DNA of 64,000 nucleotides, taken from a virus. Its lineage: Duplodnaviria > Caudoviricetes. The number at the start of each line of letters is the position of its first letter. Positions within the stretch are counted from its first letter, which is position 1. The stretch is taken from IMG/VR virus record IMGVR_UViG_3300047160_005525, positions 12,777 through 76,776 of that record. One strand, written 5' to 3'. The position numbers and the translations under genes were made by a program. Below, piece by piece: positions 1,672-64,000 of the stretch. The notes below the pieces were generated by a model. It was not told the DNA's origin. It saw nothing but the letters and a program-made list of their open reading frames with translations, and did no database searches.

Positions 1672-1776
1672 GAGGGCCGACTCTTCGGATGAAAAGTCAG
1701 CCCTCACCTCGCCATGCCTTGCCTAGCCTCGCCGTGCCTCGCCCTGCCTGGCCAAGCCTGGCCTCGCCAAGACCAT
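1672..1776 (-). ncRNA. Orphan GGY/NN pentamer repeat unit with 3' hairpin (putative VIPR-type guide RNA)
   Basis: About 13 regular RCC-NN pentamers on + (GGY-NN on -). Hairpin 1672-1705 has two C.A mismatches on + that are U.G pairs on -. Confidence 0.7.
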
Positions 1777-5161: not shown

Positions 5162-5227
5162 ATGCCTATCTCTTTCGCAAACATTCCATCTAATATTAAG
5201 GTCCCTTTATATTGGGTGGAAGTGGAT
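5162..5227 (+). CDS. Tail sheath protein exon 1 (MPISFANIPSNIKVPLYWVEVD)
   Basis: Sheath-like N-terminus with GGAG RBS; the unspliced frame stops shortly after; joins in frame to exon 2. Confidence 0.85.
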
Positions 5228-5491
5228 AACGCGAATCAAGCGTAGGTCCCTTTGTCGAGCAATCGACATCGAACATCGGGTGAACTCGGGGAAACTCCAG
5301 ATCGGACAATCCCGAGCCAAGCTGCCGCAACGGCAGAAGGTGTAACGACTAGAGCGCAAGCTCGTAGGATCAAGCGATCCGAAGCGCCCGACGCCCCAAG
5401 TGGGCGGTGATATAGTCTCCTCCACATAGGAATATGTGGCAGTCCGCAAAAGGACGGTAGCGAGAGTAGCGAACTCGCTGCGAAGATTAGG
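5228..5491 (+). ncRNA. Group I self-splicing intron (264 nt, no ORF) in the tail sheath gene
   Basis: 5' exon ends in U with P1 GGAU/GUCC; P7 elements ACGACUAGAG and GAUAUAGUC; P9-type hairpins; terminal G5491; splicing restores VEVD-PSMAGLPT. Confidence 0.88.
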
Positions 5492-7255
5492 CCCTCAATG
5501 GCAGGTTTGCCGACGCTCAATCTGCGAGCGTTGCTGATCGGCACGATGAATGCTGACGGCACTGGCACTCAAGACATCCCGGTTGCCATAGGCACGCAAG
5601 CATCAGCCGACGAGAAGTTCGGCGTAGGCTCTGAACTCGCGCAGATGTTCAAAGCCTACTTTAAAAATAATTTTGCCAATGAGGTGTGGGCGGGGCCCGT
5701 GGCTCCGTCTACTAACTCGCAAGCAGCAAGTGGCACGATCACGGTGACGACGCCGCCGAGCGAGGCCGGAACGATCAATCTCTACATCGCCGGTCATCAT
5801 GTGGCGGTCAACGTCGGCATGAGTGATACGGCTGAGCAGGTTGCGCTTGAAATCGCTAACGCGATTAATGCAATCGAACCCGCTTTGCCGGTGACAGCGG
5901 CAGCAGGGACCGGAGCGACAACTACGGGAACTGGCACCGGCAATTCGACGGGCACGACCAGTCTGACCGTCTCGTCGTCAACCGGTACCATCGCGATCGG
6001 CGCGACCGTGACTGGCACCGGCGTTCCTGCCAACACGACGATTGCGAGTCAGACCTCGGGCACGATCGGCGGCGATGGCGTGTACGTCACCAGTAACCCG
6101 ACGACGCTGTCGGCGGCAGCGATCACGACCACGCTGACCAGCAATACGAACGTGGTCACGGTGACTTGCACCTTCCTGGGCGTCAACGGCAACGAGATTC
6201 GCATCGAGCAGGACTACTACGGAATGCTCGGCGGCGAACGGCCGGTGACGGGGCTGGTGCTGACGTTGCCGGCGACAAACTTCTTGACCGGCGGTGTCGG
6301 CACGCCGGACTTTACCAACTTGATCATAGCCATGGGCGAGACGCCGTTTGAGTATCTCTGCGTGCCTTACTGGGATTCCAACACCTTGCTCGCGTTTGAG
6401 GAGGAGATGGGATTCGGAGATTCGGGTCGCTGGGGATGGCAGCGTCAGCTGTTCGGCCATGTGTTCCTTGCCAAGCGCGGTCAATACTCGGACCTCGTCA
6501 CCTGGGGCTTGACCCGCAACAGCGGATTGATCTCGGTGCTGGCGTTCGAGAATCCCACGCCGACGCCGATGTACGAGATGGCGGCGGCTTACACGGCGAA
6601 GGCGCAGCGCGCGCTCAGCAACGACCCGGCCAGGCCGCTGCAGACCTTGCAACTCAACGGCACGCTGCCGGCGAAGCTGCACGATCGCTTCAACTTCGTC
6701 GAACTCAACTCCCTCGCCTCAAGCGGCCTTGCCATCCAGAAGTGTTGGGAAGGCTCGGGCATGTCGCAAATCGCCCGCGAGCAAACAACCTACCAACTTA
6801 ATCTTTATGGCCAGGGCGATGACGCGTACGAACTCGTCACGACGCTCGCGACGTTGGCGAAGATTCTCCGCAATCAACGTCACGCGATCACGAGCAAGTA
6901 TCCCAGACACAAACTTGCGAATGACGGAACACGCTTCGGGCCAGGGCAGGCGATTGTGACCCCGGCTATTATCAAAGCCGAATTAGTCGCACAATACCGG
7001 ATGGATATGTGGGACGGCCTCGTCGAGGACGTCGCCGACTTCAAGCGCTTCCTCCTGGTGGAAAGGGACCCGGATAACCCTAATAGGTTAAACGTGCTTT
7101 ATCCGCCTGACTTGATAAATCAGCTGCGAATCTTCGCCGTGCTCGCACAATTTAGACTCCAGTACGATCGTGGGATCGATGTTGCCATTATCGGCTATAC
7201 GGGACTCGCAGGAATCGCTGGACCTGGTGGTGCCTTAACTGGTACTGGTGGCTAA
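5492..7255 (+). CDS. Tail sheath protein exon 2 (Mu gpL-like)
   Basis: DPARPLQTL, KYPRHKLANDGTRFGPGQAIVTP and NRLNVLYPPDLINQLRIFAV sheath motifs. Confidence 0.95.
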   Translation, partial: PSMAGLPTLNLRALLIGTMNADGTGTQDIPVAIGTQASADEKFGVGSELAQMFKAYFKNNFANEVWAGPVAPSTNSQAASGTITVTTPPSEAGTINLYIAGHHVAVNVGMSDTAEQVALEIANAINAIEPALPVTAAAGTGATTTGTGTGNSTGTTSLTVSSSTGTIAIGATVTGTGVPANTTIASQTSGTIGGDGVYVTSNPTTLSAAAITTTLTSNTNVVTVTCTFLGVNGNEIRIEQDYYGMLGGERPVTGLVLTLPATNFLTGGVGTPDFTNLIIAMGETPFEYLCVPYWDSNTLLAFEEEMGFGDSGRWGWQRQLFGHVFLAKRGQYSDLVTWGLTRNSGLISVLAFENPTPTPMYEMAAAYTAKAQRALSNDPARPLQTLQLNGTLPAKLHDRFNFVELNSLASSGLAIQKCWEGSGMSQIAREQTTYQLNLYGQGDDAYELVTTLATLAKILRNQRHAITSKYPRHKLANDGTRFGPGQAIVTPAIIKAELVAQYRMDMWDGLVEDVADFKRFLLVERDPDNPNRLNVLYPPDLINQLRIFAVLAQFRLQYDRGIDVAIIGYTGLAGIAGPGGALTGTGG

Positions 7256-7932
7256 TGGTAGCAAGGGCCGAACGCGCAGCAGCGAAGGCGGCAGGGCTTA
7301 TTCAATACTTTACGGGTAAGCCCTGCATCAATGGACATATTGGTCCGCGAAACACTGCTGGTGGCTATTGTCTTCAATGCATCAATGAACTGAGACAGTG
7401 TAAGCGTGCGAAGAAGAAAGGCTATCGCACACGCGCTGAGATCGCTGCTGATACGAACAAGCCGATGCGTCGCTGCAAGGCGTGTAAGAAGGAATTTCCG
7501 GCAACATCGGAATTCTTTGTGACGCTGCGAAAGATTCAGCCAAGCGGCACGGTTACGCTTGGTTTTGCGCGTGAATGTCGAGACTGTCGGAATAAGCGCT
7601 TCACTACTTTCTATGCAGATAACCGTGAAGCGATGATTCTGCGAGTTACGGAATATACGCGCGATAATCCGGCACCGAAACGCAATCGGGATGCAATTCG
7701 TTACATGCGCCGTAAGAAGCGCAATGGTTGTCCGCCGTGGGCTGATCAGAAGAAGCTCGAAACGATTTACGCGATTGCCGACTATCTGACGAAGAAGACC
7801 GGCATCCCGCATGAGGTGGATCACTATTATCCACTCATGCACAAGAAGTGCTGCGGTCTGCATGTGCCGTGGAATCTACGCGTGATTACGCAGGCGGCGA
7901 ACCAAGCCAAAGGCAATCGCTTGCCTGAGTAA
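7255..7932 (+). CDS. HNH homing endonuclease with Zn-finger motifs
   Basis: CxxC pairs; HEVDHYYPL...CGLHVPWNLRVITQAANQAKGN; inserted between sheath and tube genes. Confidence 0.85.
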   Translation: MVARAERAAAKAAGLIQYFTGKPCINGHIGPRNTAGGYCLQCINELRQCKRAKKKGYRTRAEIAADTNKPMRRCKACKKEFPATSEFFVTLRKIQPSGTVTLGFARECRDCRNKRFTTFYADNREAMILRVTEYTRDNPAPKRNRDAIRYMRRKKRNGCPPWADQKKLETIYAIADYLTKKTGIPHEVDHYYPLMHKKCCGLHVPWNLRVITQAANQAKGNRLPE

Positions 7933-26826: not shown

Positions 26827-27539
26827 CTACACAGCAACATAATTGGGATCATTACGTTCGGCGATCGGGCGCAGACTATGCACAGCAATTCTTAAGATTG
26901 CTGCCGACTGGGCAAGCATGGCCGAAAACGCCGGGTTCGATTCTAGAGCGTGTTTGCTATGGGCTCGCCGAGTATTGGGGCTTCGTCGATGCGCGCGCTG
27001 GCGATCTGCTAGAGCGCGAGAGCGATCCACGCAAGACGATAGAGCTTCTGCCTGATTGGGAGAAAGCTTGGGGCCTGCCAGACCCATGCTTCCCGTCAGC
27101 GACGACGATCGGCGAACGTCAAAAAATGCTTGTCCTGTTCATGACGTGGATGGGAGGGCAAAGTCGAGATTATTTTAAGAGCGTCGCCGAGTTCGTCGGC
27201 TACACGATCGAGATCAAAGAATTCGCACCGTTCATGTGCGGGATTTCTCGCGCTGGTGATACACGCACGCCGCCGCCGGATTCGCCGATCACAGATCAGA
27301 ATTTCCGTTGGTATATCGGAGGACCCGAGCAGCGGTTCTACTGGGAAGTCAGCGTCGGCCAAGTTGGCTTGATTTGGTTTCGTGCATCGGCAGGGCAAGC
27401 CGGCGTTGATCATCACTTGGAGTTCGCTGTCCCGACAGAGTTCATCTGTCTGCTCGATCGCTGGAAGCCAGCGCACACTGTCATCGTTCCAGACTTCAGC
27501 AAACTTGCCTTTGGCGGGCCGATGCAGGGAACGCCATAA
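26823..27539 (+). CDS. Baseplate protein DUF2313/YmfQ (Mu gp48-like)
   Basis: LLPTGQAWP...ESDPRKTIELLPDWEKAWGLPDPC...WKPAHT. Confidence 0.9.
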   Translation: MTTQQHNWDHYVRRSGADYAQQFLRLLPTGQAWPKTPGSILERVCYGLAEYWGFVDARAGDLLERESDPRKTIELLPDWEKAWGLPDPCFPSATTIGERQKMLVLFMTWMGGQSRDYFKSVAEFVGYTIEIKEFAPFMCGISRAGDTRTPPPDSPITDQNFRWYIGGPEQRFYWEVSVGQVGLIWFRASAGQAGVDHHLEFAVPTEFICLLDRWKPAHTVIVPDFSKLAFGGPMQGTP

Positions 27540-28183
27540 TGAAGAAAGCGTATGTCTACGCGATCATTGTTGATGGAGTGATCCGCTACTTCGGCAAAGG
27601 TAGCGGCAACCGAAAACTCGCGCATATGCGAATGGTGCGAAGCATCGCCCGTCGTCGCGCCGCTGGCGAAACAGTGCGTACTTCACATTTTTACAATCGA
27701 TTGACAAAAGCATGGCTCGAAGGAGCAGAGATTGCAGAGATCATTCTCGTCGAAGGCTTGACTAATGAAGAGGCGTACGCGCGGGAGATCGCCGAGATAG
27801 CGGCTGCGCCACAAGGACAATTATGGAATACGTGGCCCGGTGGAGAAGGTGGCGGCAAAGGTCATTCGCTATCGCTCGAACATAGACAGAAAATTGCTGA
27901 ATCAAATCGAAAGACTTGGTCTGATCCTGAAGTTTTGGCCAAACAATCTGAGCAGAAGAAAATACATTGGTTGCGACCGGAGTATCAAGCGCAATTAGTC
28001 GGTCGAAAATGGACGCCGGAAATGAAGCAAGAACTTTCTGATACACGAAAAGCGCAATGGGCTGATCCGGAATTCGAAGCGCGAATGCAGGCAAGCAAGC
28101 GATCAGCGCCAGAATTCCACGCAAAGCGCAGCGAAGAGCGGCGACGAAGCTGGGAAACTCGGCGTAAATCGAAAACAACATGA
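27539..28183 (+). CDS. GIY-YIG homing endonuclease with NUMOD3-like repeats
   Basis: AYVYAIIVDGVIRYFGKGSGNR; WNTWPGGEG; EHRQKIAES. Confidence 0.78.
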   Translation: MKKAYVYAIIVDGVIRYFGKGSGNRKLAHMRMVRSIARRRAAGETVRTSHFYNRLTKAWLEGAEIAEIILVEGLTNEEAYAREIAEIAAAPQGQLWNTWPGGEGGGKGHSLSLEHRQKIAESNRKTWSDPEVLAKQSEQKKIHWLRPEYQAQLVGRKWTPEMKQELSDTRKAQWADPEFEARMQASKRSAPEFHAKRSEERRRSWETRRKSKTT

Positions 28184-33421: not shown

Positions 33422-35022
33422 TCATCGCGCTGAGTTCAGGCCATGCTCGTGATTGCCCAGGCGCTTCGGACATCATCGATGAGGTCACGGAGGCGCGACG
33501 CGTGGTCGAGCGTACAGCGCAATATCTTCGCACCGCTGGCATCGATGTCCGCGTTTTCCATGACAACGAATCGACATCTCAGGACGAGAATCTAGACGCC
33601 ATCATTGACTGGACGAATGCCCAAGATGCCGATCTCGCGGTCTCGATTCATTTCAATTCGAACGGGACCACGTCTCAGCCGGTCGGTACTGAATGTTGGT
33701 ACAAGACGCAACGAGAGTTAGCGGCTGACGTCGCTGCCGAGATTGCTATATCTTCAGGGCTTATCGATCGAGGCGGCAAACAGACCGATTCTTTGGCATT
33801 TTTGAATGGGACCGAAGCTCCAGCGATCTTGGTAGAGGTCTGTTTCGTAAATTCACAGGCGGACTGCACAACCTATCGACAGAAATTCGATGACGTTTGT
33901 CGCGCTCTCGCCGGTGCGATATCGAGCGAGACAATCCCGCCGAGCGAGCCGGGTGAACGTGCCCCGCGTCCTGAATGGCCGCAATTCCCCGAAGCGCCAG
34001 AGGGACCACCATGGGACAGCAGACCTGAAGAAGTTCCGATCGAGGATCGACCGACACTACGGCGCGGCGATGAAGGCCCTCATGTGCTCGACATGCAGCG
34101 CATGATCCCGCGGTTCACCGGTGACTTCGACGGCGACTTTGGACCGACGACGGAAGACAATGTTCTGCGCTATCAGGACTCGCGCGGGCTCGATGCTGAT
34201 GGCATCTGCGGGCCGATTATGTGGGAGGCGCTGTACACGCACAAGCTTCCTGTGCCGCCTCCGCCGGCTCCGCCTGGTGCGCTTACGCCCGAGCAGCAGG
34301 TCGTGATCATGCGGCTCGCGAACGATTCTGCGATTGCTGATTACTATTGGCAGGATCGTGGTATTGCGCCAAACGGTTGGATCACTGGCATGGCATTGGC
34401 GTTCGGGCAAACTTACAAGAAATGGAAGGTTGGTCATCCGGCTGCACTCGAGATGGCGAAAGCGCGCATGGACACCGACAAGGACGTGCTCAATCTCTAT
34501 CGCGATGAGTTCGAGCAGCTTGGTATGCCAAATGAAGATGATGGGGCTGATACGTTGCGGCATCTCTTTGCCCTTCTTATCGGGCACGGCATGAGAGAGA
34601 GTTCGGGCGCCTACTGCGAAGGTCGAGACATGAGCGCCGACAATGTCGAAAGCGATACGGCTGAAGCTGGCGCCTTCCAGACTTCATACAACGCGCACAC
34701 CGCGAGCGATCCGGAATTCGACAACCTGATGGATGAATATCTGCACGGTCTATCGCCGGGTTATGAAGATGCTTTCTCGGAGGGCGTATCATGTTCGTCG
34801 GACGATTGGGAAAATTACGGCAGTCCAGAAGAGCGTGGCTATCAATTTCAGCGGCTGAGCAAAGACGCACCTGCGATGGCTGCCGAGCACTGCGCACTTA
34901 CCTCACGAAATCTCGCGAATCATTACGGGCCTTATCTGCGTCACGAGACCGAACTCAAGGAGGACGCAGATAACATGCTTGAGGCTGTGGCGGCTTATCT
35001 TGACGAAACCGAGCAAGCATGA
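33418..35022 (+). CDS. Modular endolysin: Amidase_3, peptidoglycan-binding domain, and putative lysozyme-like domain
   Basis: SSGH...E...SIHFNS...PAILVEVCFV; LRRGDEG...DGDFGPTTE...YQDSRGLDADGICG; GMRESSG...AGAFQTSYN. Confidence 0.88.
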   Translation: MIIALSSGHARDCPGASDIIDEVTEARRVVERTAQYLRTAGIDVRVFHDNESTSQDENLDAIIDWTNAQDADLAVSIHFNSNGTTSQPVGTECWYKTQRELAADVAAEIAISSGLIDRGGKQTDSLAFLNGTEAPAILVEVCFVNSQADCTTYRQKFDDVCRALAGAISSETIPPSEPGERAPRPEWPQFPEAPEGPPWDSRPEEVPIEDRPTLRRGDEGPHVLDMQRMIPRFTGDFDGDFGPTTEDNVLRYQDSRGLDADGICGPIMWEALYTHKLPVPPPPAPPGALTPEQQVVIMRLANDSAIADYYWQDRGIAPNGWITGMALAFGQTYKKWKVGHPAALEMAKARMDTDKDVLNLYRDEFEQLGMPNEDDGADTLRHLFALLIGHGMRESSGAYCEGRDMSADNVESDTAEAGAFQTSYNAHTASDPEFDNLMDEYLHGLSPGYEDAFSEGVSCSSDDWENYGSPEERGYQFQRLSKDAPAMAAEHCALTSRNLANHYGPYLRHETELKEDADNMLEAVAAYLDETEQA

Positions 35023-35145
35023 GAAACGGCCGCCCATTTTGTGACGACCGTTTCTCCCCTGCCATGCCTTACCGGGCCATGCCGCGCCCCGCCAGACCGG
35101 ACCTTGCCACGCCCAACCGGGCCATGCCGCGCCCTGGCTAGCGAC
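35021..35145 (-). ncRNA. Orphan GGY/NN unit with 3' hairpin
   Basis: About 15 RCC triads at 35061-35133; hairpin GAGAAACGG...CCGTTTCTC at 35021-35056. Confidence 0.7.
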
Positions 35146-35557: not shown

Positions 35558-35612
35558 CATGGCTCGCATACCGGCTCATCTGATTCGTCGTCTAAAACAA
35601 GAGGAGAGATGC

Positions 35613-35948
35613 ATGAGCTATACGCTTCCAAGCGGGATGCAAGTTACTTGCCAAATTTCTTACGTTGATGCCGCGGGCAATCCCGCTGTCGTTGATGGTG
35701 ATGTGGCGTGGTCATCGAGCGATGAAACTAAGCTCGTCGTCTTTGTCAACTCACAGGATTCGACAAAGGTCGTCCTGCGAACTGTCGGGCCAGTCGGCCT
35801 CGTTCAAGTCAAAGCAACGGCTGATGCTGATTTAGGCGCGGGCGTTCGCGAACTTGTCACTACCGCCGATGTCGACATTATCGCCGGTGAGGCAGTTGCC
35901 GGCATGATTTCACCAATCGGTCCCGCCGAGCCAATCCCCGCGGCATAA
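35613..35948 (+). CDS. Ig-like domain protein
   Basis: GAGGAG RBS; VDAAGNPAVVDGDVAWSSSD...VQVKATADADLG. Confidence 0.65.
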   Translation: MSYTLPSGMQVTCQISYVDAAGNPAVVDGDVAWSSSDETKLVVFVNSQDSTKVVLRTVGPVGLVQVKATADADLGAGVRELVTTADVDIIAGEAVAGMISPIGPAEPIPAA

Positions 35949-35950
35949 AT

Positions 35951-36058
35951 GAGAGCGAGAGCTTTCGCTCCCGCTCTCCCCTACCTTGCCTCGCCGGGCC
36001 GTACCATACCATTCCTTGCCCGACCACACCCCGCCGCGCCCCACCAGACCTCGCCGCG
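35951..36058 (-). ncRNA. Orphan GGY/NN unit with 3' GAAA-capped hairpin
   Basis: Minus strand reads (GGY-NN)x~15 then GAGAGCGGGAGC-GAAA-GCUCUCGCUCUC. Confidence 0.72.
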
Positions 36059-36616: not shown

Positions 36617-36727
36617 GAGAGCGAGAGCTTTTGGCCCTCGCTCTCCCTTGCCTCGCCGCGCCGCGCCAAGCCTTGCCGTGCCTGGCCTAGCCACGCCCTA
36701 CCCCGCCTAGCCGCGCCCCGCCACATT
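36617..36727 (-). ncRNA. Orphan GGY/NN unit with 3' hairpin
   Basis: About 15 RCC triads at 36650-36722; hairpin 36617-36645 nearly identical to the one at 35951. Confidence 0.72.
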
Positions 36728-48529: not shown

Positions 48530-49090
48530 ATGACAACCCGATATCTCAGTTGCGCCGAGACTGCCAAGCTGATCCGCGTGGCACTCAAGAAGGCGTTCCC
48601 TGGCGTCAAGTTCTCCGTGCGATCGAGCACCTATTCCATGGGCGCCTCGATCCGCGTCGGCTGGACCGATGGCCCGACCACTAAGGCGGTCGACGCTGTC
48701 GTCCAGGTCTACAGCGGCGCCGGCTTCGACGGCATGATCGACCTGAAGTATCACAAGTCGGCATGGCTGATGCCGGATGGCAGCGCGACGTTTGCGAAAA
48801 CGTCCGGGACCGCCGGCTCGATGGGCACTGTCGAAAGTGCTCAAGAGATGCAGCCTTCGTCGAAGGCCGAGCAAGTCCACTTCGGCGCCGATTACGTGTT
48901 CACCGAGCGGCGTCATTCATTGCCAGTCTACACCGCGGCAGTGAAGCAACTCTGCGACGACTACGGCCAGCCAATGCCAGAAATCGTCAACGGCCACTGC
49001 GGCCCGTACATCAAAACCAACGACTGGCGCTTTGCCGACACCGGCCAAGACCTGTCGACGCTTGTTCACCGCGCGTTGCAAGACGCGTGA
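48530..49090 (+). CDS. LPD29 (large polyvalent protein-associated domain 29) protein
   Basis: ETAKLIRVALKKAFPGVKFSVRS...GASIRVGWTDGPT...FDGMID...FGADYVF. Confidence 0.8.
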   Translation: MTTRYLSCAETAKLIRVALKKAFPGVKFSVRSSTYSMGASIRVGWTDGPTTKAVDAVVQVYSGAGFDGMIDLKYHKSAWLMPDGSATFAKTSGTAGSMGTVESAQEMQPSSKAEQVHFGADYVFTERRHSLPVYTAAVKQLCDDYGQPMPEIVNGHCGPYIKTNDWRFADTGQDLSTLVHRALQDA

Positions 49091-57419: not shown

Positions 57420-57600
57420 TTGTCTCAACTCCTTTTTCGTTTGTCTGCTCTCGTCGTTGTCGCATCATTCGAATCTTTGCTGGAATTACGATATAACTCG
57501 TGCATTCATAACAAGCGCGGCCATTGTTGACTGGTTGCGCACTGTTTCCCCAGCCGCCGAAGGGGCGGAAGCAAATCGAGCAGATGTGGCTATCAAGCAT
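57412..57600 (-). CDS. Small zinc-finger protein
   Basis: CSICF...GNSAQPVNNGRACYEC. Confidence 0.65.
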   Translation of the reverse strand: MLDSHICSICFRPFGGWGNSAQPVNNGRACYECTSYIVIPAKIRMMRQRREQTNEKGVETNG

Positions 57601-58576
57601 CGCCGCTTGCCTCATGCGCTTCCTCCGGTGTTCTCTTGAGGATCTTGAACAACCTGAAGTCCGTAGCTTCGACGGTGTAGGCTTTGCGATGCTGATGTTT
57701 CCACGACAAACACTGTCCATGCGGCAACAGGCCGAATGTATTTTGGCCGAGCTTGGCTTCAAGTTCGGTTTTGAGGGCTGTCTCTTTCTCTCTCATGCGT
57801 TTGATCGCGGCTTGAGTCTCGATCAGTTCGTCCACTGCCACGATCGCCCGGTTGTCAGTCTTGAGATCGATCGCAGTGCCAAGATCGCGCGGATATAGCT
57901 CGCGCACGAGCGCATCATCTCTTTCCGGTTCCCATGGCGGCATGATGTTGCGATCGAGATATTCACGGAAAAATGTGGCGATGCGATAGTCGATGCGATC
58001 TTCAAGTGCCGGGTTACGATCAACGTCAAACAGCCTGAAGTGCCATCCCCATTCGCCGTTGATGATCACCGCGATCACGCCCCATTTAACGTCGTTCAAT
58101 GCCATTTCATGCAGCGCTTGAATCGTGTAGGCCGCCGGCGGGATTGCGGATCCGTGTTGGATATTGTCGCTTGGGTCATCAAGCCATTTTTGCCGGAAGA
58201 TATTGCGAGCTACGACTTTTGCTTGAACAATGCCGATGCCGTTGCGCCCAGGCGCTTTAGCAAATCCATCCGGGGTACAAGCTTGGCGTTTTTCTTCATC
58301 GATGACGTGAACTTTGGCGCGAAGGATTTTCCATTCGGGATAACACTCGGCCATCGCCTCGAACACCGCGGCCTCGGCCCAGCGTCCGCGTTGGAGCACT
58401 TCGCTGTCGGCGAGTGGTGGTCGCAATCCTTTTTTTTCTGCATAGAGTGCGGCCGGCGAGCCCCATGTGCTTTCGCCAACCACGATTGCAGTCTCTGACG
58501 CATTGATGTAATTCCGCCGCCGCTCAAGCCATAGCTCGCGCGAAATATCGGTGAGCGGAACGCGAATGATGGTCAT
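57593..58576 (-). CDS. YqaJ/lambda-exonuclease family protein
   Basis: WLERRRNYINASE...LYAEKKG...RGRWAE...CTPDG...QAK...Y.IQ. Confidence 0.9.
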   Translation of the reverse strand: MTIIRVPLTDISRELWLERRRNYINASETAIVVGESTWGSPAALYAEKKGLRPPLADSEVLQRGRWAEAAVFEAMAECYPEWKILRAKVHVIDEEKRQACTPDGFAKAPGRNGIGIVQAKVVARNIFRQKWLDDPSDNIQHGSAIPPAAYTIQALHEMALNDVKWGVIAVIINGEWGWHFRLFDVDRNPALEDRIDYRIATFFREYLDRNIMPPWEPERDDALVRELYPRDLGTAIDLKTDNRAIVAVDELIETQAAIKRMREKETALKTELEAKLGQNTFGLLPHGQCLSWKHQHRKAYTVEATDFRLFKILKRTPEEAHEASGDA

Positions 58577-58672
58577 GAAATCCCTGCCTCGCCTCGCCTC
58601 GCCTTACCAGGCCATGCCATTCCTCACCTGACCATGCCGTGCCTGGCCATGCCACGCCTAGCCGCAATTCAA
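58577..58672 (-). ncRNA. Orphan GGY/NN unit carrying the array linker ends, between two genes
   Basis: Minus strand AUUGCGGC-(NN-GGY)x15-AGGGAUUUC-AUG; one triad is GGA. Confidence 0.72.
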
Positions 58673-59207: not shown

Positions 59208-59588
59208 TCATTCCCATTTGAACTCATCCAATTTGTATCGTTCACTGTCTTTCACCTTCGTGCCCATCTTTGCGGCGAGTTCATTGAGTAACTCGGACTT
59301 GATACGCGTGAACACGCAATGTTTGCAGATCGGTATAGCCGCTCCCTTCCATTTATTTTTTTGCGAGCAAATACAGATTCCGAACGCTGCGATTGCATGG
59401 TCATCATCTGCAAATGAACCGCGGCAAAAAAAACATCTCTTCCGTTCTTCGCGATTTAAGCCATGCATCGTATGCTCGATTGCTTGCATTGCCCATTGCG
59501 ACTTGGCATCTCCTGATTGTGCTGCCGCCGGCAGTTCATTGAGTTCATGCATTTCGAAGATTGCTATGTCCACATTCCACAGTTTCAT
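59208..59588 (-). CDS. CxxC zinc-binding protein
   Basis: CFFCRG...ICKHCV. Confidence 0.6.
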   Translation of the reverse strand: MKLWNVDIAIFEMHELNELPAAAQSGDAKSQWAMQAIEHTMHGLNREERKRCFFCRGSFADDDHAIAAFGICICSQKNKWKGAAIPICKHCVFTRIKSELLNELAAKMGTKVKDSERYKLDEFKWE

Positions 59589-61129
59589 TCTGCGGCCTCG
59601 CCAAACATCTCGCCCTGTCGCGTGCGCGCCGGCAATGGATGCAAGTTAGGAACTTCTTGGATGAGTTTCATACCAGCGCATTGCGAGTTTGGAATGCCGT
59701 TGAGATTTGGTTTGCAATAGACAGTACGTTTAGCTTCGCGCGCCTGATTGATCAGGTCGATGACGTGTCCCATGTCAGCTTGTTTAGCCGGAATGAGCAC
59801 TGAGCCGCCCTTACCGTCGGGTTGATAAGTCGCGCTTTGCGAGCCGATGACAATGAAGTCAAATACCGAGAGATCGCGGAATTTGAGTCGTTCTAACATT
59901 GGTTCGACAGATAACCATTTCACGCGAACGCCACTGATCTTAGCGAAAGCCGTCTCAGCAATTTTGACTCTATCTTGGCAGTCGACCGTGGTGCCGAGCC
60001 ATGAAGTCTCTGGGAAAGCTACGCCTTTTTCGAGCAGTTCGACATAACGCTGCGGAAATTTGGTGAGGAATAGATATTCCCACCAAGGCGCAGCCCTGCA
60101 GGCGACAAACACCTTGTCGATCCATTCGTCAGGGACCCACTTGCCGAACAAATCGCCCATCGATGAAACGAATACACGGCCGAGTCGCGGGTCCTGTTTC
60201 CAGCCATCTGGCAGCGCGGAATTTTTGGGCGCATCCAATCGATGTTCGAAAAATGTCGGCTCAAATCCGAACGGATAGTGTTTCTTGAGGTTTGGATTGA
60301 TCTCGGTGCCTTCACGCGCATAGCAGTAAGGACAGTTGTGCAGGCAACCAGAGACGATAGTCCAAGTCCATGCGGCCCATGAGACTTGATCATTTGTCTC
60401 GATGAAATGGGGCTTCGACTTGGGCAGCGGATAGTTTGCTGTCTTGCCGGTGTGCGTGATGACGATAGTGAAATGCTTGCCTGGTGCGCCATCATCCGGC
60501 TTAGGTGCAGCCGCCTTCTCGCGCCGCATGGTCTTGTAAGCTTCGGGAAGACTTTGTTCGCCGCGTTCCACGCTGGTCGCCAGAGAAACGGAATAAGATT
60601 TGATCGCTTTTGCCATTGCAACAGTACGCGGGTCGACCTTTGCAATCTCCGCAATATCATCGCGGGCGCGATGCTCTTTTCTTCGTTTCTTTTTGTCCGT
60701 CCGGGTATGTAAACCCCGCTGCGACTTTTTATTGTGCCGTTGTTCAATCCTCGTTTTGTTACCCTTCTTCGAGCCCTCCATTTTCCGCTCTTGTGCCGCC
60801 TTCTCAAATTGCGGAGCAAGATCGAGCGCAAGCATTGCGCGCTGTCCAGCAGTGAGATCGCGCCGGCGCAAATTGACGCTGACGATGTAATTGAGGATGT
60901 CGGTCTCCGTGTAGCTCTTGGATAACCGCTTGAAGATCGGCTTCACGCCCGCGCGCTTGCATGCTTTCCAGCGGTTCACACCGTCAATGATCATTTTGCC
61001 GTTAGCGGTGAGTATGATTGGCTGGCGTTGCTTGTTCGCCTTGATGTCCTGCGCCAACGCCTCAAGCTCGTCTTCCGACAAAGCAGGAAATCGTGCAGCG
61101 ACGGGATGGATCTTCAATTCGGCAGACAT
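59585..61129 (-). CDS. ParB-like N-terminal domain fused to DUF5131 (phage Gp37/Gp68, radical-SAM-like)
   Basis: IHPVAARFPALS...IIDGVNRWKAC; GCLHNCPYCYA; RVFVSSMGDLF; FLTKFPQR; WLGTTV; WLSVEPML. Confidence 0.88.
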   Translation of the reverse strand: MSAELKIHPVAARFPALSEDELEALAQDIKANKQRQPIILTANGKMIIDGVNRWKACKRAGVKPIFKRLSKSYTETDILNYIVSVNLRRRDLTAGQRAMLALDLAPQFEKAAQERKMEGSKKGNKTRIEQRHNKKSQRGLHTRTDKKKRRKEHRARDDIAEIAKVDPRTVAMAKAIKSYSVSLATSVERGEQSLPEAYKTMRREKAAAPKPDDGAPGKHFTIVITHTGKTANYPLPKSKPHFIETNDQVSWAAWTWTIVSGCLHNCPYCYAREGTEINPNLKKHYPFGFEPTFFEHRLDAPKNSALPDGWKQDPRLGRVFVSSMGDLFGKWVPDEWIDKVFVACRAAPWWEYLFLTKFPQRYVELLEKGVAFPETSWLGTTVDCQDRVKIAETAFAKISGVRVKWLSVEPMLERLKFRDLSVFDFIVIGSQSATYQPDGKGGSVLIPAKQADMGHVIDLINQAREAKRTVYCKPNLNGIPNSQCAGMKLIQEVPNLHPLPARTRQGEMFGEAAE

Positions 61130-61911
61130 GCCAAAGCCTCCTTCGACGCCCTGGCCATGCCATTGCAGTTGTAAATCTCGACGAAGGGATAACGGACGCA
61201 GCTATTAGCGAGGTCGTCGGCAACAACCATGATGCGGAAGCGAAAGGCGTTGCTCGCGCCGATCTGCATCGTACGGGCGACGTAGCGTTTGCCGAGCGTT
61301 TCCCGCCACCACTGCGGATCGATGTGCGCCGAATAAAGATCGCGCATCGTCTCGCTGGCGCCGGTGCTGGTCGTGCCGTTGATGCGTCGGCACGCGCCTT
61401 CGTTCAAGATGATGACGAAGTCAGCCGCGACCTTGGCGGCGACCTTGCACATGTGCTCGACGCCGTGGTCACGCGGACCGACTGGGTCGGACAGCCAGAG
61501 TGCGTAGTGGTGGTCAGGACGCAGGACACTCGGTGCCTCGCGATGATGACCAACGATTTGGGCTGTTGGGAAGCGGGAATAGAGCTTAACACGCTTGGCG
61601 TAGACTTTTTCGCACAATACGACATCAACATTGCCCACCTGCGCCGCGATGTCGGTCAAGATTTCCGGTGTTGGATGCGACAAGATCTCGCCAACGAACA
61701 TGTCTTCCTGGTACGTATCGATGAGTACACCTTCGCCATCGCCGGCGTTACCATCGAACAGCACCACCTTATGATTCGGGTGACTGACCCGGTAAGCATT
61801 GACCTGCGAGGCCACAATCTTCTCGACGAATTCGTGCTTGATGTAACTGCGATCGGATTTGCCGGCGCCATGTCGGTCGCGGTGCCGGCGGCTGAATGAG
61901 ATCAGTGCCAT
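61114..61911 (-). CDS. TcmP-like (three-Cys-motif partner) methyltransferase-fold protein
   Basis: KHEFVEK...VVLFDGNAGDG motif; adjacent to DUF5131. Confidence 0.65.
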   Translation of the reverse strand: MALISFSRRHRDRHGAGKSDRSYIKHEFVEKIVASQVNAYRVSHPNHKVVLFDGNAGDGEGVLIDTYQEDMFVGEILSHPTPEILTDIAAQVGNVDVVLCEKVYAKRVKLYSRFPTAQIVGHHREAPSVLRPDHHYALWLSDPVGPRDHGVEHMCKVAAKVAADFVIILNEGACRRINGTTSTGASETMRDLYSAHIDPQWWRETLGKRYVARTMQIGASNAFRFRIMVVADDLANSCVRYPFVEIYNCNGMARASKEALACLPN

Positions 61912-61928
61912 CGCAGCTACTCTTTATA

Positions 61929-63128
61929 TTAGACTCGACCTTTCGACCAAGCGGGGCTGGGAAATTTGAGCTTCTTGACCACGCGCCCCGCCTTGATTTC
62001 CTCGTCATTGAGCCGCCTGACGAAGACGTCGCGCAGCTTCCGGTAGCAAGGGCCGCGGTCGCGCTCGCGCATGTTCTTGCCGTAGAGCCAGTCGTAATAA
62101 TTCGAGTCCGAAGTGATAGCGACCATGCACTTGCGGAACGTGTTCGCGTCTATGGTGGTGTGAGTTAGCTTCCTCGCGATGCCGATCTGATTCTTCAGCA
62201 CAAGCTGCCTGAACATCCACATCAGCATGCACATGTTGAGGTTTCCCCAGAGTCGAAAATACTCCGAGTGATTGCCCCAGGCTGAGTAGCAAAGGTTGAG
62301 GAACATGCAGAGATTGGAGACCTCGCTGTCCGGCAAGTTATCCGGAACACGGCCGCTGCTCTTGGCGCCAGGCGTTTCGGCGTCGCTGCCGATCCAGCAA
62401 TTGAGCACCGCCGACATGCTGACCAGCTTCTGCGCGGTGGTGGCGCGGCGGATCTGGTCGAAGCCGACGAACGAGCACTGTGTGACGATCGCTTGCAGTG
62501 ACGGCTTATTCTCCATCGCCGCCTTGAGCACGTCGTCGCGGCGCATCGGCACGAGCGAATCCTGAAGTTCAATGTAGTCGTTCGCCATCTCACCGAAGTC
62601 GGCATAACGCTTGATGTGGATGGTGAGCAGGAATTGGATCACGCCGGATGTCAGCGCCGCGTACAAGCGGTGCTGCCCGTCGACCTTGTAGATATTGGGG
62701 TCGCCAGGAATGCGCCCTAAGGTGATGACGCCGCCGCTGACGCAGCCGTCGCTGACTCTAACCTTCTCGCGATAAGCATCGACCTTCGCGTTGTCCTTCT
62801 GCGTGCGCTGGAATTTCGGCAGCGTCCAGGTTTCGACTTCGTCCGCGGTGACGAGTACAGCATCGCTCATGGCGCAGCCATTCTCCGCAGCGTCGGCCGC
62901 CGCGAGCAGCTTCGCCATGTCTTCGCCGTGCCCGGAATAGTCGGGCTCGATCGGCAACCTGGTGACGTTGGAGATCGGCGGCGGCGACGGATCGGTCATG
63001 ATCATTTCGCTGGGATCCGGCGCCTGAAACGTTGCCGTGCTGGCGAGCTTTTCGGCCTTGAGCTTGCGCACGTTGGCGGCCTGCGCCGCAATAGAATGCT
63101 TCTTCTCGCGATGCTTCTTACTCATCAC
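61929..63128 (-). CDS. DGQHR/ParB-Srx-like domain protein
   Basis: FQRTQK...ITLG...YKVDGQHRLYA. Confidence 0.75.
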   Translation of the reverse strand: MMSKKHREKKHSIAAQAANVRKLKAEKLASTATFQAPDPSEMIMTDPSPPPISNVTRLPIEPDYSGHGEDMAKLLAAADAAENGCAMSDAVLVTADEVETWTLPKFQRTQKDNAKVDAYREKVRVSDGCVSGGVITLGRIPGDPNIYKVDGQHRLYAALTSGVIQFLLTIHIKRYADFGEMANDYIELQDSLVPMRRDDVLKAAMENKPSLQAIVTQCSFVGFDQIRRATTAQKLVSMSAVLNCWIGSDAETPGAKSSGRVPDNLPDSEVSNLCMFLNLCYSAWGNHSEYFRLWGNLNMCMLMWMFRQLVLKNQIGIARKLTHTTIDANTFRKCMVAITSDSNYYDWLYGKNMRERDRGPCYRKLRDVFVRRLNDEEIKAGRVVKKLKFPSPAWSKGRV

Positions 63129-63201
63129 GCCCTCCTCCGTATTCTCTCAGATTCTCTCGGATATTACGCCACGACCCAAGCTCGTCAACCAGACGGCATT
63201 A

Positions 63202-64000
63202 GCAATCATCGAAATATCCCTGCCTCGCCCGGCCACGCCGCACCCGGCCATGCCCAACCAGGCCTTGCCGTGCCTGACCATGCCGCGCCGCAATCAAAAA
63301 AACGAATCCCTGCCTCGCCTCGCCTCGCCCAGCCAAACCACGCCCGGCCATACCGCGCCTCGCCCGGCCCGCGCCGCACCGCGCCGCAGCAAACCTCACT
63401 AAATGTCAATCAAGAAAGTATCCCTGCCTTGCCTCGCCATGCCACGCCTCGCCCGACCATGCCTCGCCTTGCCCGGCCAGGCCCGGCCCTGCCCAGAAAT
63501 CAAAAAACTATCCTCGCCTCGCCTTGCCAAGCCCCGCCTAGCCCGACCTTGCCATACCAGGCCATGCCCCACCGCAATCATTAAAATATCCCTGCCTCGC
63601 CTTGCCCTGCCTCGCCCCGCCTCGCCTCGCCTTGCCGTACCTCGCCGTACCTTGCCAAGCCGCAATCGAAAAAATATCCCTGCCTCGCCGCGCTTTGCCG
63701 CGCCTCGCCTCGCCTCACCAGACCAGACGTCGCCCGGCCACGCCCTGCCTCGCCGCAATCATCGAAAATATCCCTGCCTCGCCGTACCCGGCCGCACCGC
63801 GCCCCGCCACGCCGCGCCGTGCCTAACCTCGCCCGGCCGCAATCATCGAAATTATCCCTGCCTCGCCCCGCCTCGCCTGGCCGTGCCCAGCCTGACCCCG
63901 ACTCGCCTAGCCATGCCTCGCCCGGCCATGCCGCAATCATCGAAATATCCCTGCCTCGCCTTGCCCAGCCTCGCCATGCCAGGCCTCACCCAGCCTCGCC
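63202..64000 (-). repeat. Array of at least 9 GGY/NN pentamer units with conserved AT-rich linkers (putative VIPR-type guide RNA array), runs off the window
   Basis: Linker consensus on + is GCAATCATCGAAATATCCCTGCCTCGCC; each unit has about 12-17 RCC-NN pentamers with a different NN string. Confidence 0.85.

What the first reader, a model, noticed from the sequence alone, without database searches (positions are those of the whole stretch)
63202..64000. CRISPR-like array of non-contiguous GGY/NN guide units (candidate VIPR-type RNA-guided system)
Seen: at least 9 units of about 75-115 nt. On the minus strand each reads GAUUGC-(GGY-NN)x~12-17-AGGGAUAUUUC. The GGY triad and linker are near-constant, while the NN string differs in every unit. 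Unit 63218-63290 decodes, RNA 5'-3', as GC-AU-CA-AC-AA-CU-UG-AU-CG-GC-GU-CG-GA. Unit ~63590-63662 decodes as UU-AA-AC-GA-AC-AA-GA-GA-GG-GA-AG-AA-GA. A fixed scaffold with variable 2-nt slots, arranged as repeat/spacer, looks like stored sequence information rather than slippage. Recollection, not verifiable here: recently reported VIPR systems pair a RAMP/Cas7-like protein with GGY/NN RNAs whose NN dinucleotides read a gapped DNA target. Inference: no RAMP-like gene is in the window, so the effector should lie beyond 64000, upstream on the minus strand.
Basis: partly seen in the sequence, partly recalled or inferred. Interest (0 to 1): 0.95.

Follow-up and report, generated by a model that had tools for sequence, protein, structure and literature searches.

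The report
VIPR guide-RNA array without visible effector
The five-base rhythm at the end of this soil-phage contig is a real array of guide RNAs of the recently described VIPR system (a CRISPR-like, phage-borne DNA silencer), and sister guides elsewhere on the phage spell rival phages' versions of the genes next to them, but the protein that uses the guides is not on the assembled DNA.

Summary
Observation confirmed. On the minus strand, window 63202-64000 holds nine units of 10-15 GGYNN pentamers (116 of 119 conform). GGY is near-invariant, NN is variable, and units are joined by 18-38-nt linkers. The array runs off the contig end.

It is a VIPR vrRNA array, a kind published in 2026 and met many times by this scan on other DNA. 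Six more units lie dispersed on the same strand.

Evidence for function comes from the sister units, not the nine array units:
- Under the published 1-nt-skip rule only, four solo units best match their neighbouring gene, in wobble register.
- Unit D matches 24/24 in two other phage contigs, inside homologues of its neighbour gene.
- The array-type solo S58k spells a rival RecE-like allele at 11/12 codons; the phage's own allele scores 8/12.
- A related phage (G001) has tracts with the same terminal motif flanking a Vipr homologue with a Cas7 fold.

No target was found for the nine array units.

No Vipr is detectable on the 76.8-kb contig, although positive controls worked. The contig also lacks the large terminase that relatives carry, so it is incomplete at the array junction. 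Vipr may lie in that gap (my estimate 55%) or the phage may be VIPR-null (35%).

Verdict: new member of a known kind.

The parts
63202..64000 (-). vrRNA array: nine GGYNN units plus linkers, cut by the contig end
   Evidence: 116 of 119 pentamers are GGY-NN. Period-5 power is 19.9x the mean. Rfam finds no family here. No promoter-like or terminator-like site lies inside the array.
63951..64000 (-). unit A1 (partial, 10 pentamers), truncated by the contig end
63858..63932 (-). unit A2, 15 pentamers (one degenerate, GTCGG)
63774..63838 (-). unit A3, 13 pentamers
   Evidence: Exact gapped-pattern scan of the viral collection: 0 hits.
63680..63754 (-). unit A4, 15 pentamers (two degenerate)
63592..63661 (-). 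unit A5, 14 pentamers
63514..63573 (-). unit A6, 12 pentamers
63424..63493 (-). unit A7, 14 pentamers
   Evidence: Exact gapped-pattern scan of 185,579 species genomes: 0 hits.
63310..63385 (-). unit A8: 3 pentamers, a 1-nt slip, then 12 pentamers; preceded by the one long (38-nt) linker
63220..63289 (-). unit A9, 14 pentamers, the last unit before the final linker at 63202-63219
   Evidence: Exact gapped-pattern scan of the viral collection: 0 hits.
63161..63188 (-). promoter-like site (TTGACG-16-TAATAT) between the array and the next gene
   Evidence: 1 site found against 0.1 expected. It suggests the downstream operon has its own start, and that the array is transcribed from beyond the contig end (inference).
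58584..58663 (-). S58k: solo unit of the array type (16 pentamers, GATTGAATTGC 5' flank, GGCAG GGATTTC 3' end), wedged between two early genes
- Best skip-1 hit on the whole contig is in the adjacent gene: 22/32, reached locally by 0 of 500 shuffles.
- The decoded peptide matches the rival allele P0282 at 11/12 codons; the phage's own allele scores 8/12; shuffled guides reach at most 7.
57593..58576 (-). RecE/YqaJ-like exonuclease gene; its own mismatched copy of the S58k target site lies at 58083-58129
   Evidence: [quoted passage not shown]
36648..36722 (-). solo unit E, 15 pentamers, followed by a hairpin tail at 36617-36645
   Evidence: No significant target was found.
35981..36055 (-). 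solo unit D, 15 pentamers (12 guide + 3 constant), followed by a hairpin tail at 35951-35978
- 24/24 gapped match in two other viral contigs, L020 and L021.
- Local best hit 21/30, reached by 0 of 500 shuffles.
35559..35948 (+). 129-aa gene next to unit D; its own mismatched copy of D's target site lies at 35829-35864
   Evidence: Allele series for the 12 guide dinucleotides: G007 and G008 24/24, G005 21/24, G004 20/24, own 19/24.
35059..35133 (-). solo unit C, 15 pentamers, followed by a hairpin tail at 35021-35056
   Evidence: Best contig-wide skip-1 hit (20/30) is antisense in the adjacent endolysin gene at 34351-34394, in wobble register; 7 of 500 shuffles reach it.
1704..1768 (-). solo unit B, 13 pentamers, followed by a hairpin tail at 1672-1705
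   Evidence: Its local best skip-1 hit (18/26), equal to the contig-wide maximum (three positions on the contig score that high), is at the 3' end of the adjacent collagen-like tail-fibre gene (1643-1680), in register; 15 of 500 shuffles reach it.
61929..63128 (-). 399-aa gene directly downstream of the array: context, not the effector
   Evidence: - No Pfam, PHROG, NCBIfam or PADLOC family.
- Conserved as a trio with the next two genes in relatives that have no arrays.
- HH probability against the Vipr profile is 1.0%.
- The fold failed, pLDDT 46.

Best explanation
**What it is.** The interval is an array of VIPR guide RNA (vrRNA) genes in an uncultured, myovirus-like soil phage.

**How a unit is built.** Each unit is transcribed from the minus strand. 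By the published mechanism, one Vipr (Cas7-like RAMP) protomer would grip each GGY triplet and flip it out. The NN pairs would then read double-stranded DNA two bases in three, skipping one base per step. In coding targets the skipped base is the codon wobble position. In each unit the first 8-13 pentamers are the guide. The last two or three (mostly GGCGA GGCAG, then GGG/GGAT) are a constant handle.

**Expression (inferred).** The array has no internal promoter-like or terminator-like sites. Its A/U-rich linkers are unstructured. I infer one precursor, started beyond the contig end and cut at the linkers.

**Likely purpose.** The purpose is probably to silence genes of competing phages. Sister units on the same contig spell rival alleles of the gene they sit beside. 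The phage's own allele is mismatched and so immune.

**Where the protein comes from.** The Vipr protein is not encoded on the assembled 76.8 kb. It most likely lies in the unassembled segment between the array and the head genes (my estimate 55%). Otherwise it is borrowed from a co-infecting VIPR-positive phage (35%).

**Shown:** form, strand, the skip-1 code, and targets for two sister units.
**Inferred:** transcription, processing, binding by Vipr, and silencing.
For: 1. **Form.** 116/119 GGY-NN pentamers, entropy confined to NN, period 5 but not period 3. The layout matches the published vrRNA definition.
2. **Reference control.** The same scan recovers SUSP1's vrRNAs around its Vipr gene, whose residues match the published contact residues.
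3. **Related phage G001.**
   - It shares the g78-g77-g76, RecE-like and head genes.
   - It has GGYNN tracts ending GGCRA GGCAG G, like these.
   - Those tracts flank a protein that hits the SUSP1-family profile at E = 2.6e-10.
   - That protein's family profile hits SUSP1 Vipr at 2.3e-13 and matches the SUSP1-family profile at 99.2% HH probability.
   - It folds at pLDDT 90 onto Csm3/Cas7 chains at probability 1.00.
   - G001 also has a hairpin-tailed solo unit like ours.
4. **Code.** Under skip 1, four of six solo units have their local best hit (the contig-wide maximum) in the adjacent gene. Shuffles reach these scores 0/500, 0/500, 7/500 and 15/500 times. Skip 0 and 3 show no local signal; at skip 2, units D (1/500) and S58k (25/500) keep a weaker one. 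All four hits put NN on codon positions 1-2.
5. **Targets.**
   - Unit D matches 24/24 in two other viral contigs, inside 62-66% identical homologues of its neighbour gene. The two targets differ from each other only at skipped bases.
   - The own allele is the worst match of five alleles.
   - The array-type unit S58k spells a rival RecE-like allele at 11/12 codons, against 8/12 for the own allele and at most 7 for shuffled guides.
6. **Strand.** All five hairpin tails are more stable as minus-strand RNA.
Against: - None of the nine units inside the interval has an identified target. They have no significant match on the contig or in 324 kb of related phages. They do not match 274 Vipr/vap proteins or the other protein families in hand. 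Three exact-pattern scans found nothing.
- No Vipr is detectable on the contig by phmmer, two family profiles, single-sequence HH or tblastn.
- Array units with linkers fold no better than shuffles (z about 0). They therefore lack the structured tail described for SUSP1.
- There are no expression data.
- GA is over-represented among the NN pairs (31 of 119). Some 3' halves may be filler rather than guide.
Confidence: 0.85

Rival explanations
1. **Orphan array in a VIPR-null phage.** The mechanism is the same, but the phage encodes no Vipr at all. Its 15 or more guides load onto the Vipr made by a co-infecting or resident VIPR-positive phage. That would turn the rival's protein against the rival or against third parties. 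This alternative is nested in the best explanation and differs only in where the protein comes from.
For: - No Vipr is found on 76.8 kb, although the controls worked.
- CheckV rates the record 100% complete.
- VIPR-null phages with solo vrRNAs are in print (10.64898/2026.10.15.759431).
- The guides are dispersed over the genome rather than gathered around one locus.
- Near-complete relatives G004 and G006 have neither a Vipr nor arrays, so vipr is not a fixed gene of this phage group.
Against: - The contig is demonstrably incomplete where the array breaks off. Both near-complete relatives carry a large terminase (phrog_9, E about 1e-120). In G006 it lies directly upstream of the gene-1 homologue. 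Our contig has none.
- Published VIPR-null phages carry 1-2 solo vrRNAs, not 15 or more.
- None of the units decodes to a Vipr gene, which is a common target of published orphan guides.
Confidence: 0.35
2. **A different partner protein.** The GGYNN RNAs work with a protein encoded on this contig that is not a recognisable Vipr. It could be a very divergent RAMP of another VIPR type, or an unrelated RNA-binding protein.
For: - Many ORFs of 120-260 aa have no family assignment.
- The paper describes seven Vipr types with low sequence similarity. My two profiles need not cover all of them.
- No fold-level screen of these ORFs was possible.
Against: - The terminal motif of the units matches that of G001, whose Vipr my profiles detect easily.
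- The two clade profiles recognise each other across types.
- No ORF has the invariant G-x-G-D-x-R G-loop in a plausible context.
- The two array-adjacent gene families are unrelated to Vipr (HH 1.0% and 0.4%). They also occur in array-less relatives.
Confidence: 0.07
3. **Not a guide array.** It is a minisatellite generated by slippage, or part of a repetitive protein-coding gene. Open frames of 119-199 aa cross it on both strands.
For: - Long open frames exist: 199 aa on the plus strand and up to 134 aa (stop to stop) on the minus strand.
- Each linker carries an AGGGA...ATG that could mimic a translation start (sequence).
- GGCGA is over-represented.
Against: - There is no period-3 signal (0.7x the mean) against a 19.9x period-5 signal.
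- Unit lengths are not multiples of three.
- Variation is confined to two of five positions, which slippage does not produce.
- Units of identical build on the same contig decode to real genes of other phages.
- My codon-usage gene caller did not select these frames.
Confidence: 0.03

Closest known systems
VIPR systems (Vipr + vap + vrRNA); experimental exemplar is type II of Escherichia phage SUSP1 (bioRxiv 10.64898/2026.04.26.720920 and .720927)
   Same: - vrRNAs of 9-16 GGY-NN pentamers followed by a constant 3' part.
- Carried by a phage.
- Targets read with one skipped base that falls on codon wobble positions, on either strand.
- No self-target at 80% match or above.
- Aimed at competing mobile elements.
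   Different: - No vipr or vap on the assembled contig.
- Y is mostly C (100 of 119), whereas SUSP1 tracts are mostly GGT.
- The array linker is a short, unstructured A/U-rich stretch instead of a roughly 40-nt hairpin/pseudoknot tail.
- There are at least 15 units, spread over the whole genome.
VIPR locus of the related soil phage G001 (IMGVR_UViG_3300021405_000017), found here
   Same: - Shares phage genes with our contig.
- Its tracts end in the same GGCRA GGCAG G motif.
- It has a hairpin-tailed solo unit of the same build as ours.
   Different: - G001 encodes the Vipr (294 aa, Cas7 fold) and a 180-aa partner between two array blocks.
- Its arrays are nearly continuous pentamers without A/U-rich linkers, resembling the 'staggered' architecture named in the paper.
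Solo (orphan) vrRNAs of VIPR-null SUSP1-family phages and F5 satellites (bioRxiv 10.64898/2026.10.15.759431)
   Same: - Guides without a Vipr hit on the contig.
- Self-match lower than rival-match.
- Wobble-aligned targets.
   Different: - Published cases have 1-2 units sitting where vipr-vap1 was deleted. They target vipr, other vrRNAs, satellites or REP elements.
- Here there is a 9-unit array plus six dispersed units. Decoded targets are rival alleles of the neighbouring structural or recombination gene.
- Our contig is incomplete, so VIPR-null status is unproven.
Class 1 CRISPR arrays and crRNAs
   Same: Tandem units that store variable guide information between constant parts, read by a Cas7-family backbone protein.
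   Different: - No 23-50-nt identical repeats.
- The 'spacer' is itself a 5-nt periodic scaffold.
- Recognition is gapped.
- No cas genes or adaptation module.
Homing-endonuclease marker exclusion in T-even phages (works-like comparison for the solo units only; from general knowledge)
   Same: A weapon against a rival's allele is kept physically next to the resistant allele. Weapon and immunity would then be inherited together in mixed infections.
   Different: The effector is an RNA-guided silencer, not a site-specific nuclease. No evidence here for cleavage, gene conversion or spread.

Membership tests
VIPR system (vrRNA array) | vrRNA made of about 9-16 tandem GGY-NN (YNNGG) pentamers with conserved GGY and hypervariable NN | tested here: met
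   Nine units of 10-15 pentamers; 116/119 conform; entropy 0.14/0.07/0.63 bits against 1.81/1.87 bits.
VIPR system (vrRNA array) | Constant 3' extension (tail) after the repeat tract | tested here: met
   Array units end in a near-constant GGCGA GGCAG GGATATTT...GATTGC. Solo units end in a 12-15-bp hairpin (z -3.7 to -4.6). The array tail is unstructured (z about 0), unlike the SUSP1 pseudoknot.
VIPR system (vrRNA array) | A Vipr (single-RRM RAMP with G-loop and thumb) gene in the locus | tested here: inconclusive
   Nothing is found on 76.8 kb with SUSP1 Vipr, G001 Vipr, two family profiles or HH, and the positive controls worked. However, the contig ends inside the array and lacks the terminase that relatives have.
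VIPR system (vrRNA array) | A RAMP protein linked to homologous arrays in related elements | tested here: met
   In G001, tracts with the same terminal motif flank a Vipr homologue (E 2.6e-10). Its model has pLDDT 90 and hits Csm3/Cas7 chains at probability 1.00.
VIPR system (vrRNA array) | NN strings match natural targets under the 1-nt skip rule, with the skipped base on the wobble position | tested here: met
   Met for sister units:
- D matches 24/24 in two contigs.
- S58k matches 11/12 codons of a rival allele.
- The local signal is strongest at skip 1 (four units) and absent at skip 0 and 3; two units keep a weaker local hit at skip 2. All four skip-1 hits are in wobble register.

Not met for the nine units of the array itself: no target was found.
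VIPR system (vrRNA array) | No self-target at 80% NN match or above on the source contig | tested here: met
   The best self-matches are 60-71% and lie within shuffle expectation genome-wide.
VIPR system (vrRNA array) | A vap accessory gene beside vipr | tested here: inconclusive
   No SUSP1 vap1 or G001 partner homologue was found on the contig. The adjacent 399-aa gene is conserved in array-less relatives, so it is not an array-specific accessory gene.
VIPR system (vrRNA array) | Units expressed as discrete RNAs of about 100 nt that co-purify with Vipr and silence targets | not testable with these tools
   Needs small-RNA sequencing, pull-down and reporter assays.
Orphan vrRNAs of VIPR-null phages | No Vipr hit on the contig, or none within 20 kb (the operational rule of 10.64898/2026.10.15.759431) | tested here: inconclusive
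   The rule is met on the assembled DNA. But the array abuts the contig end, and at least the terminase gene is missing beyond it.
CRISPR array | Near-identical direct repeats of 23-50 nt separating unique spacers, with cas genes nearby | tested here: not met
   The constant parts are mostly 18-20-nt degenerate linkers (one of 38 nt). The variable parts are 5-nt periodic. No cas, PADLOC or RAMP hit appears near the array.

The most novel reading that the evidence does not exclude
The phage runs an allele-linked guide system. Each dispersed vrRNA gene is kept physically beside the mismatched (immune) allele of the very gene it silences in rivals. Guide and immunity are then co-inherited. In mixed infections this would favour the linked allele, acting as an RNA-guided analogue of homing-endonuclease marker exclusion. 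The terminal array would be the same weapon in bulk, in an architecture (short, unstructured A/U-rich linkers, no tail fold) that I did not see named in the text of the VIPR papers. It might be used without a vipr gene of the phage's own. This scan has noted the 'guide beside rival allele' pattern in several other phages. I did not find it in the three preprints' text.
Probability: 0.35. Interest if true: 0.7.

Novelty: new member of a known kind. Interest (0 to 1): 0.45.

Why it matters
VIPR was described only in 2026, mostly from enterobacterial and Pseudomonas phages.

This contig gives a clean, decodable example from an uncultured soil myovirus:
- an exact natural target, 24/24 in two rival phages;
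- an allele series in which the phage's own copy is the worst match;
- two structural classes of guide gene in one genome.

It supports the view that VIPR is a tool of competition between sibling phages. It also adds the recurring observation that solo guides sit next to the immune copy of their target gene. If that observation is general, it says something about how such guides arise and are inherited.

For the array itself, the practical point is a caution. Assemblies tend to break inside these repeats, so 'no effector on the contig' and a CheckV score of 100% do not show that a phage is VIPR-null.

Tried and rejected
1. **G-loop motif hunt.** The only D-W-R hit (ORF 48530-49090) is an LPD29-domain protein.
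2. **The 265-aa ORF (61114-61911) as Vipr.** Rejected:
   - its family has methyltransferase-like motifs;
   - it occurs in array-less phages;
   - it is unrelated to Vipr.
3. **The 399-aa ORF as effector or vap.**
   - It is conserved without arrays and unrelated to Vipr.
   - AlphaFold gave pLDDT 46, so no fold search was run.
4. **Linker patterns.** An exact pattern and a degenerate pattern found 0 hits in the viral collection.
5. **Relatives of the 399-aa gene by pattern search.** None found.
6. **Exact gapped-pattern scans.** S58k, A9, A3 and A7 each gave 0 hits.
7. **Do the guides target vipr genes?** No: the decoded peptides do not match 274 Vipr/vap proteins.
8. **G001 array unit against our capsid gene.** It scored 18/24, but 28 of 300 shuffles do as well and it is out of codon register. 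Treated as chance.
Not supported by my shuffles: 466 of 500 reach the local score.
The 20-kb contig of the closest gene-77 relative (P0123, 77% identity) could therefore not be fetched.
11. **Rfam.** Nothing in the array or linkers, so no ribozyme.
Full report
**1.

On the minus strand, 63202-64000 reads as nine units. Each unit has a GATTGC lead-in and 10-15 pentamers of the form GGY-NN. Most units close with GGCGA GGCAG and a GGAT-A/T-rich linker. Eight linkers are 18-20 nt and one is 38 nt.

- 116 of 119 pentamers conform.
- Positional entropy is 0.14, 0.07 and 0.63 bits for G, G, Y, against 1.81 and 1.87 bits for the two N positions.
- The longest perfect run is 14 pentamers. Shuffles of the region reach at most 6.
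- Power at period 5 is 19.9 times the mean. There is no period-3 signal.
- Rfam finds no known RNA family or ribozyme here.

The window's last base is also the last base of a 76,776-bp IMG/VR virus contig. The array is therefore truncated and cannot be extended.

**2. The array is not alone.**

A scan of the whole contig finds six further tracts, all on the minus strand:
- window 58663-58584;
- window 36722-36648;
- window 36055-35981;
- window 35133-35059;
- window 1768-1704;
- one outside the window, at L001:2617-2676.

The first of these (S58k) has array-type flanks and sits between two early genes. The other five are each followed at once by a 12-15-bp G+C-rich hairpin (z = -3.7 to -4.6). 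Four of these five lie 31-36 bp after the stop codon of a plus-strand gene and so converge on it.

All five hairpins are more stable as minus-strand RNA, for example -25.8 against -14.6 kcal/mol. Their stems are unbroken only on that strand. This fixes the transcribed strand. Array units with their linkers fold no better than shuffles. The contig therefore holds two structural classes of unit.

**3. What it is.**

VIPR systems were described in 2026. They comprise:
- a small Cas7-like RAMP protein, Vipr;
- usually an accessory gene, vap;
- vrRNAs of 9-16 GGY/NN repeats plus a constant tail.

The NN pairs read DNA with one skipped base, which in genes falls on the wobble position.

As a control I fetched the reference phage SUSP1. 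The same scan recovers its vrRNAs around a 195-aa gene, and that gene's residues match the published contact residues.

Searching with relatives of a gene near our array brought in a related soil phage, G001.
- Its GGYNN tracts end in GGCRA GGCAG G, as ours do.
- They flank a 294-aa protein that the SUSP1-family profile detects at E = 2.6e-10.
- That protein belongs to a family of 1,677 representative clusters.
- Its family profile detects SUSP1 Vipr at 2.3e-13 and matches the SUSP1 profile at 99.2% HH probability.
- It folds at pLDDT 90 onto Csm3/Cas7 backbone subunits at probability 1.00.
- G001 also carries a hairpin-tailed solo unit like ours.

A RAMP gene is thus linked to homologous arrays in a relative.

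**4. The code works on this contig.**

I decoded all 15 units and scanned the contig with gaps of 0-3 against shuffled-order controls. Genome-wide, nothing stands out, as the paper reports for self-targets.

At gap 1, however, four of six solo units have their local best hit, equal to the contig-wide maximum (the only such position for three of them), inside the neighbouring gene:

| Unit | Score | Shuffles reaching it |
|---|---|---|
| S58k | 22/32 | 0 of 500 |
| D | 21/30 | 0 of 500 |
| C | 20/30 | 7 of 500 |
| B | 18/26 | 15 of 500 |

Gaps 0 and 3 show no such local signal. At gap 2, units D (20/30, 1 of 500) and S58k (20/32, 25 of 500) keep a weaker local match. In all four gap-1 hits NN falls on codon positions 1-2, whether the guide-like strand is sense or antisense.

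An exact scan of the viral collection with unit D's 12 variable pairs (24 fixed bases) returned two contigs.
- Both sites lie in 62-66% identical homologues of the gene next to D.
- Both are in register, and they differ from each other only at skipped bases.
- Across five alleles, the phage's own is the worst match: 24, 24, 21 and 20 for the relatives, against 19 of 24 for its own.
- D's last three pentamers do not match, so they are handle rather than guide.

For the array-type unit S58k I used 120 homologues of the adjacent RecE-like gene.
- The decoded peptide matches one rival allele at 11 of 12 codons.
- 35 homologues score better than the own allele (8 of 12).
- Shuffled guides never exceed 7.

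**5. The nine array units themselves remain undecoded.**

- They have no significant match on the contig.
- They have none in 324 kb of complete relative records.
- They match no Vipr or vap protein, which are common targets of published orphan guides, and none of the other protein families in hand.
- Three of them gave no exact hit in the viral or genome collections.

**6. Where is the effector?**

No ORF on the contig resembles Vipr by any of these tests:
- phmmer;
- two family profiles run at maximum sensitivity;
- single-sequence HH;
- tblastn.

The genes next to the array are not candidates. The 399-aa, 265-aa and ParB_N-DUF5131 genes form a trio that is conserved in relatives without any array. 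They are unrelated to Vipr at profile level.

The contig is nevertheless incomplete, despite CheckV's 100%. Both near-complete relatives have an unmistakable large terminase. In G006 it lies directly upstream of the gene-1 homologue. Our contig begins at gene 1 and has no terminase at all.

The gap therefore lies exactly between the array and the head genes. The array has no internal promoter-like site, which is consistent with transcription entering from that gap.

- I put 55% on vipr lying in the gap.
- I put 35% on a VIPR-null phage that borrows a rival's Vipr. That category is already in print, though with only 1-2 guides per phage.

**7. Comparison and novelty.**

The array is a new member of a known kind. 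It differs from the SUSP1 exemplar in four ways:
- mostly GGC rather than GGT;
- short, unstructured A/U-rich linkers in place of a folded tail;
- many units;
- no visible effector.

This scan has met VIPR arrays in hundreds of genomes. It has also met 'solo guide beside the rival allele of its neighbour gene' in several other phages. I used those notes as leads and re-tested them here. D, S58k, C and B hold. E does not. I did not find the neighbour-allele arrangement in the text of the three preprints.

**8. Limits.**

- There are no expression or binding data.
- Only exact matches could be sought in the large collections.
- Unassigned ORFs were not screened by fold.

Noticed in passing
window 5182-5439 (+): Rfam finds a full-length group I intron (65 bits, E 2.9e-14) just upstream of the tail-sheath ORF (5498-7255). 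The sheath gene may be split by it.
   Followed up: no
window 59585-63128 (-): A conserved three-gene early module, found in five related phages with or without arrays:
- a 399-aa protein with a VDGQHR motif;
- a 265-aa protein with methyltransferase-like motifs (DGNAGDGEG, SDPCGP);
- a ParB_N-DUF5131 fusion, which hits 'radical SAM mobile pair protein A' and PADLOC candidates PDC-M41B and PDC-M30B.

Probably a DNA-modification or anti-defence module.
   Followed up: partly
whole contig (G000), especially L001:1-1045: CheckV rates the record 100% complete, yet no large terminase is detectable. Relatives G004 and G006 have a clear one (E about 1e-120). The assembly appears to have broken inside the pentamer array.
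   Followed up: yes
L001:2617-2676 (-), outside the window: A sixth dispersed unit (12 pentamers plus a 12-bp GC hairpin) between two head-module genes. No target was found for it.
   Followed up: partly
window 1704-1768, 35059-35133, 35981-36055 (upstream flanks): Three hairpin-tailed solo units have a CTAG-containing motif (TAGACT, TAGCC, CTAGAG) 5-18 nt upstream of the first pentamer (A0 has a similar TAGTCT without CTAG). It could be a shared promoter or processing signal. The consensus sigma-70 scan does not call it.
   Followed up: no
window 7255-7932 (+) and 27539-28183 (+): By eye, two ORFs inside the structural module look like homing endonucleases. One has an HNH-like motif near its C-terminus. 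The other has a GIY-YIG-like N-terminus. Neither has a homologue in the near-complete relatives.
   Followed up: no
L001:14-1045 and L001:8289-10967: Two major-head-protein-like genes. One is a protease-capsid fusion of 892 aa. The other is a separate 343-aa copy that matches only the C-terminal half of the capsid family.
   Followed up: no
G001 (L022): contig positions 13557-17844: The related phage carries about 4 kb of nearly continuous GGYNN tracts on both sides of vipr and a 180-aa partner gene. It would be a good cognate protein source for testing the units of this window.
   Followed up: partly
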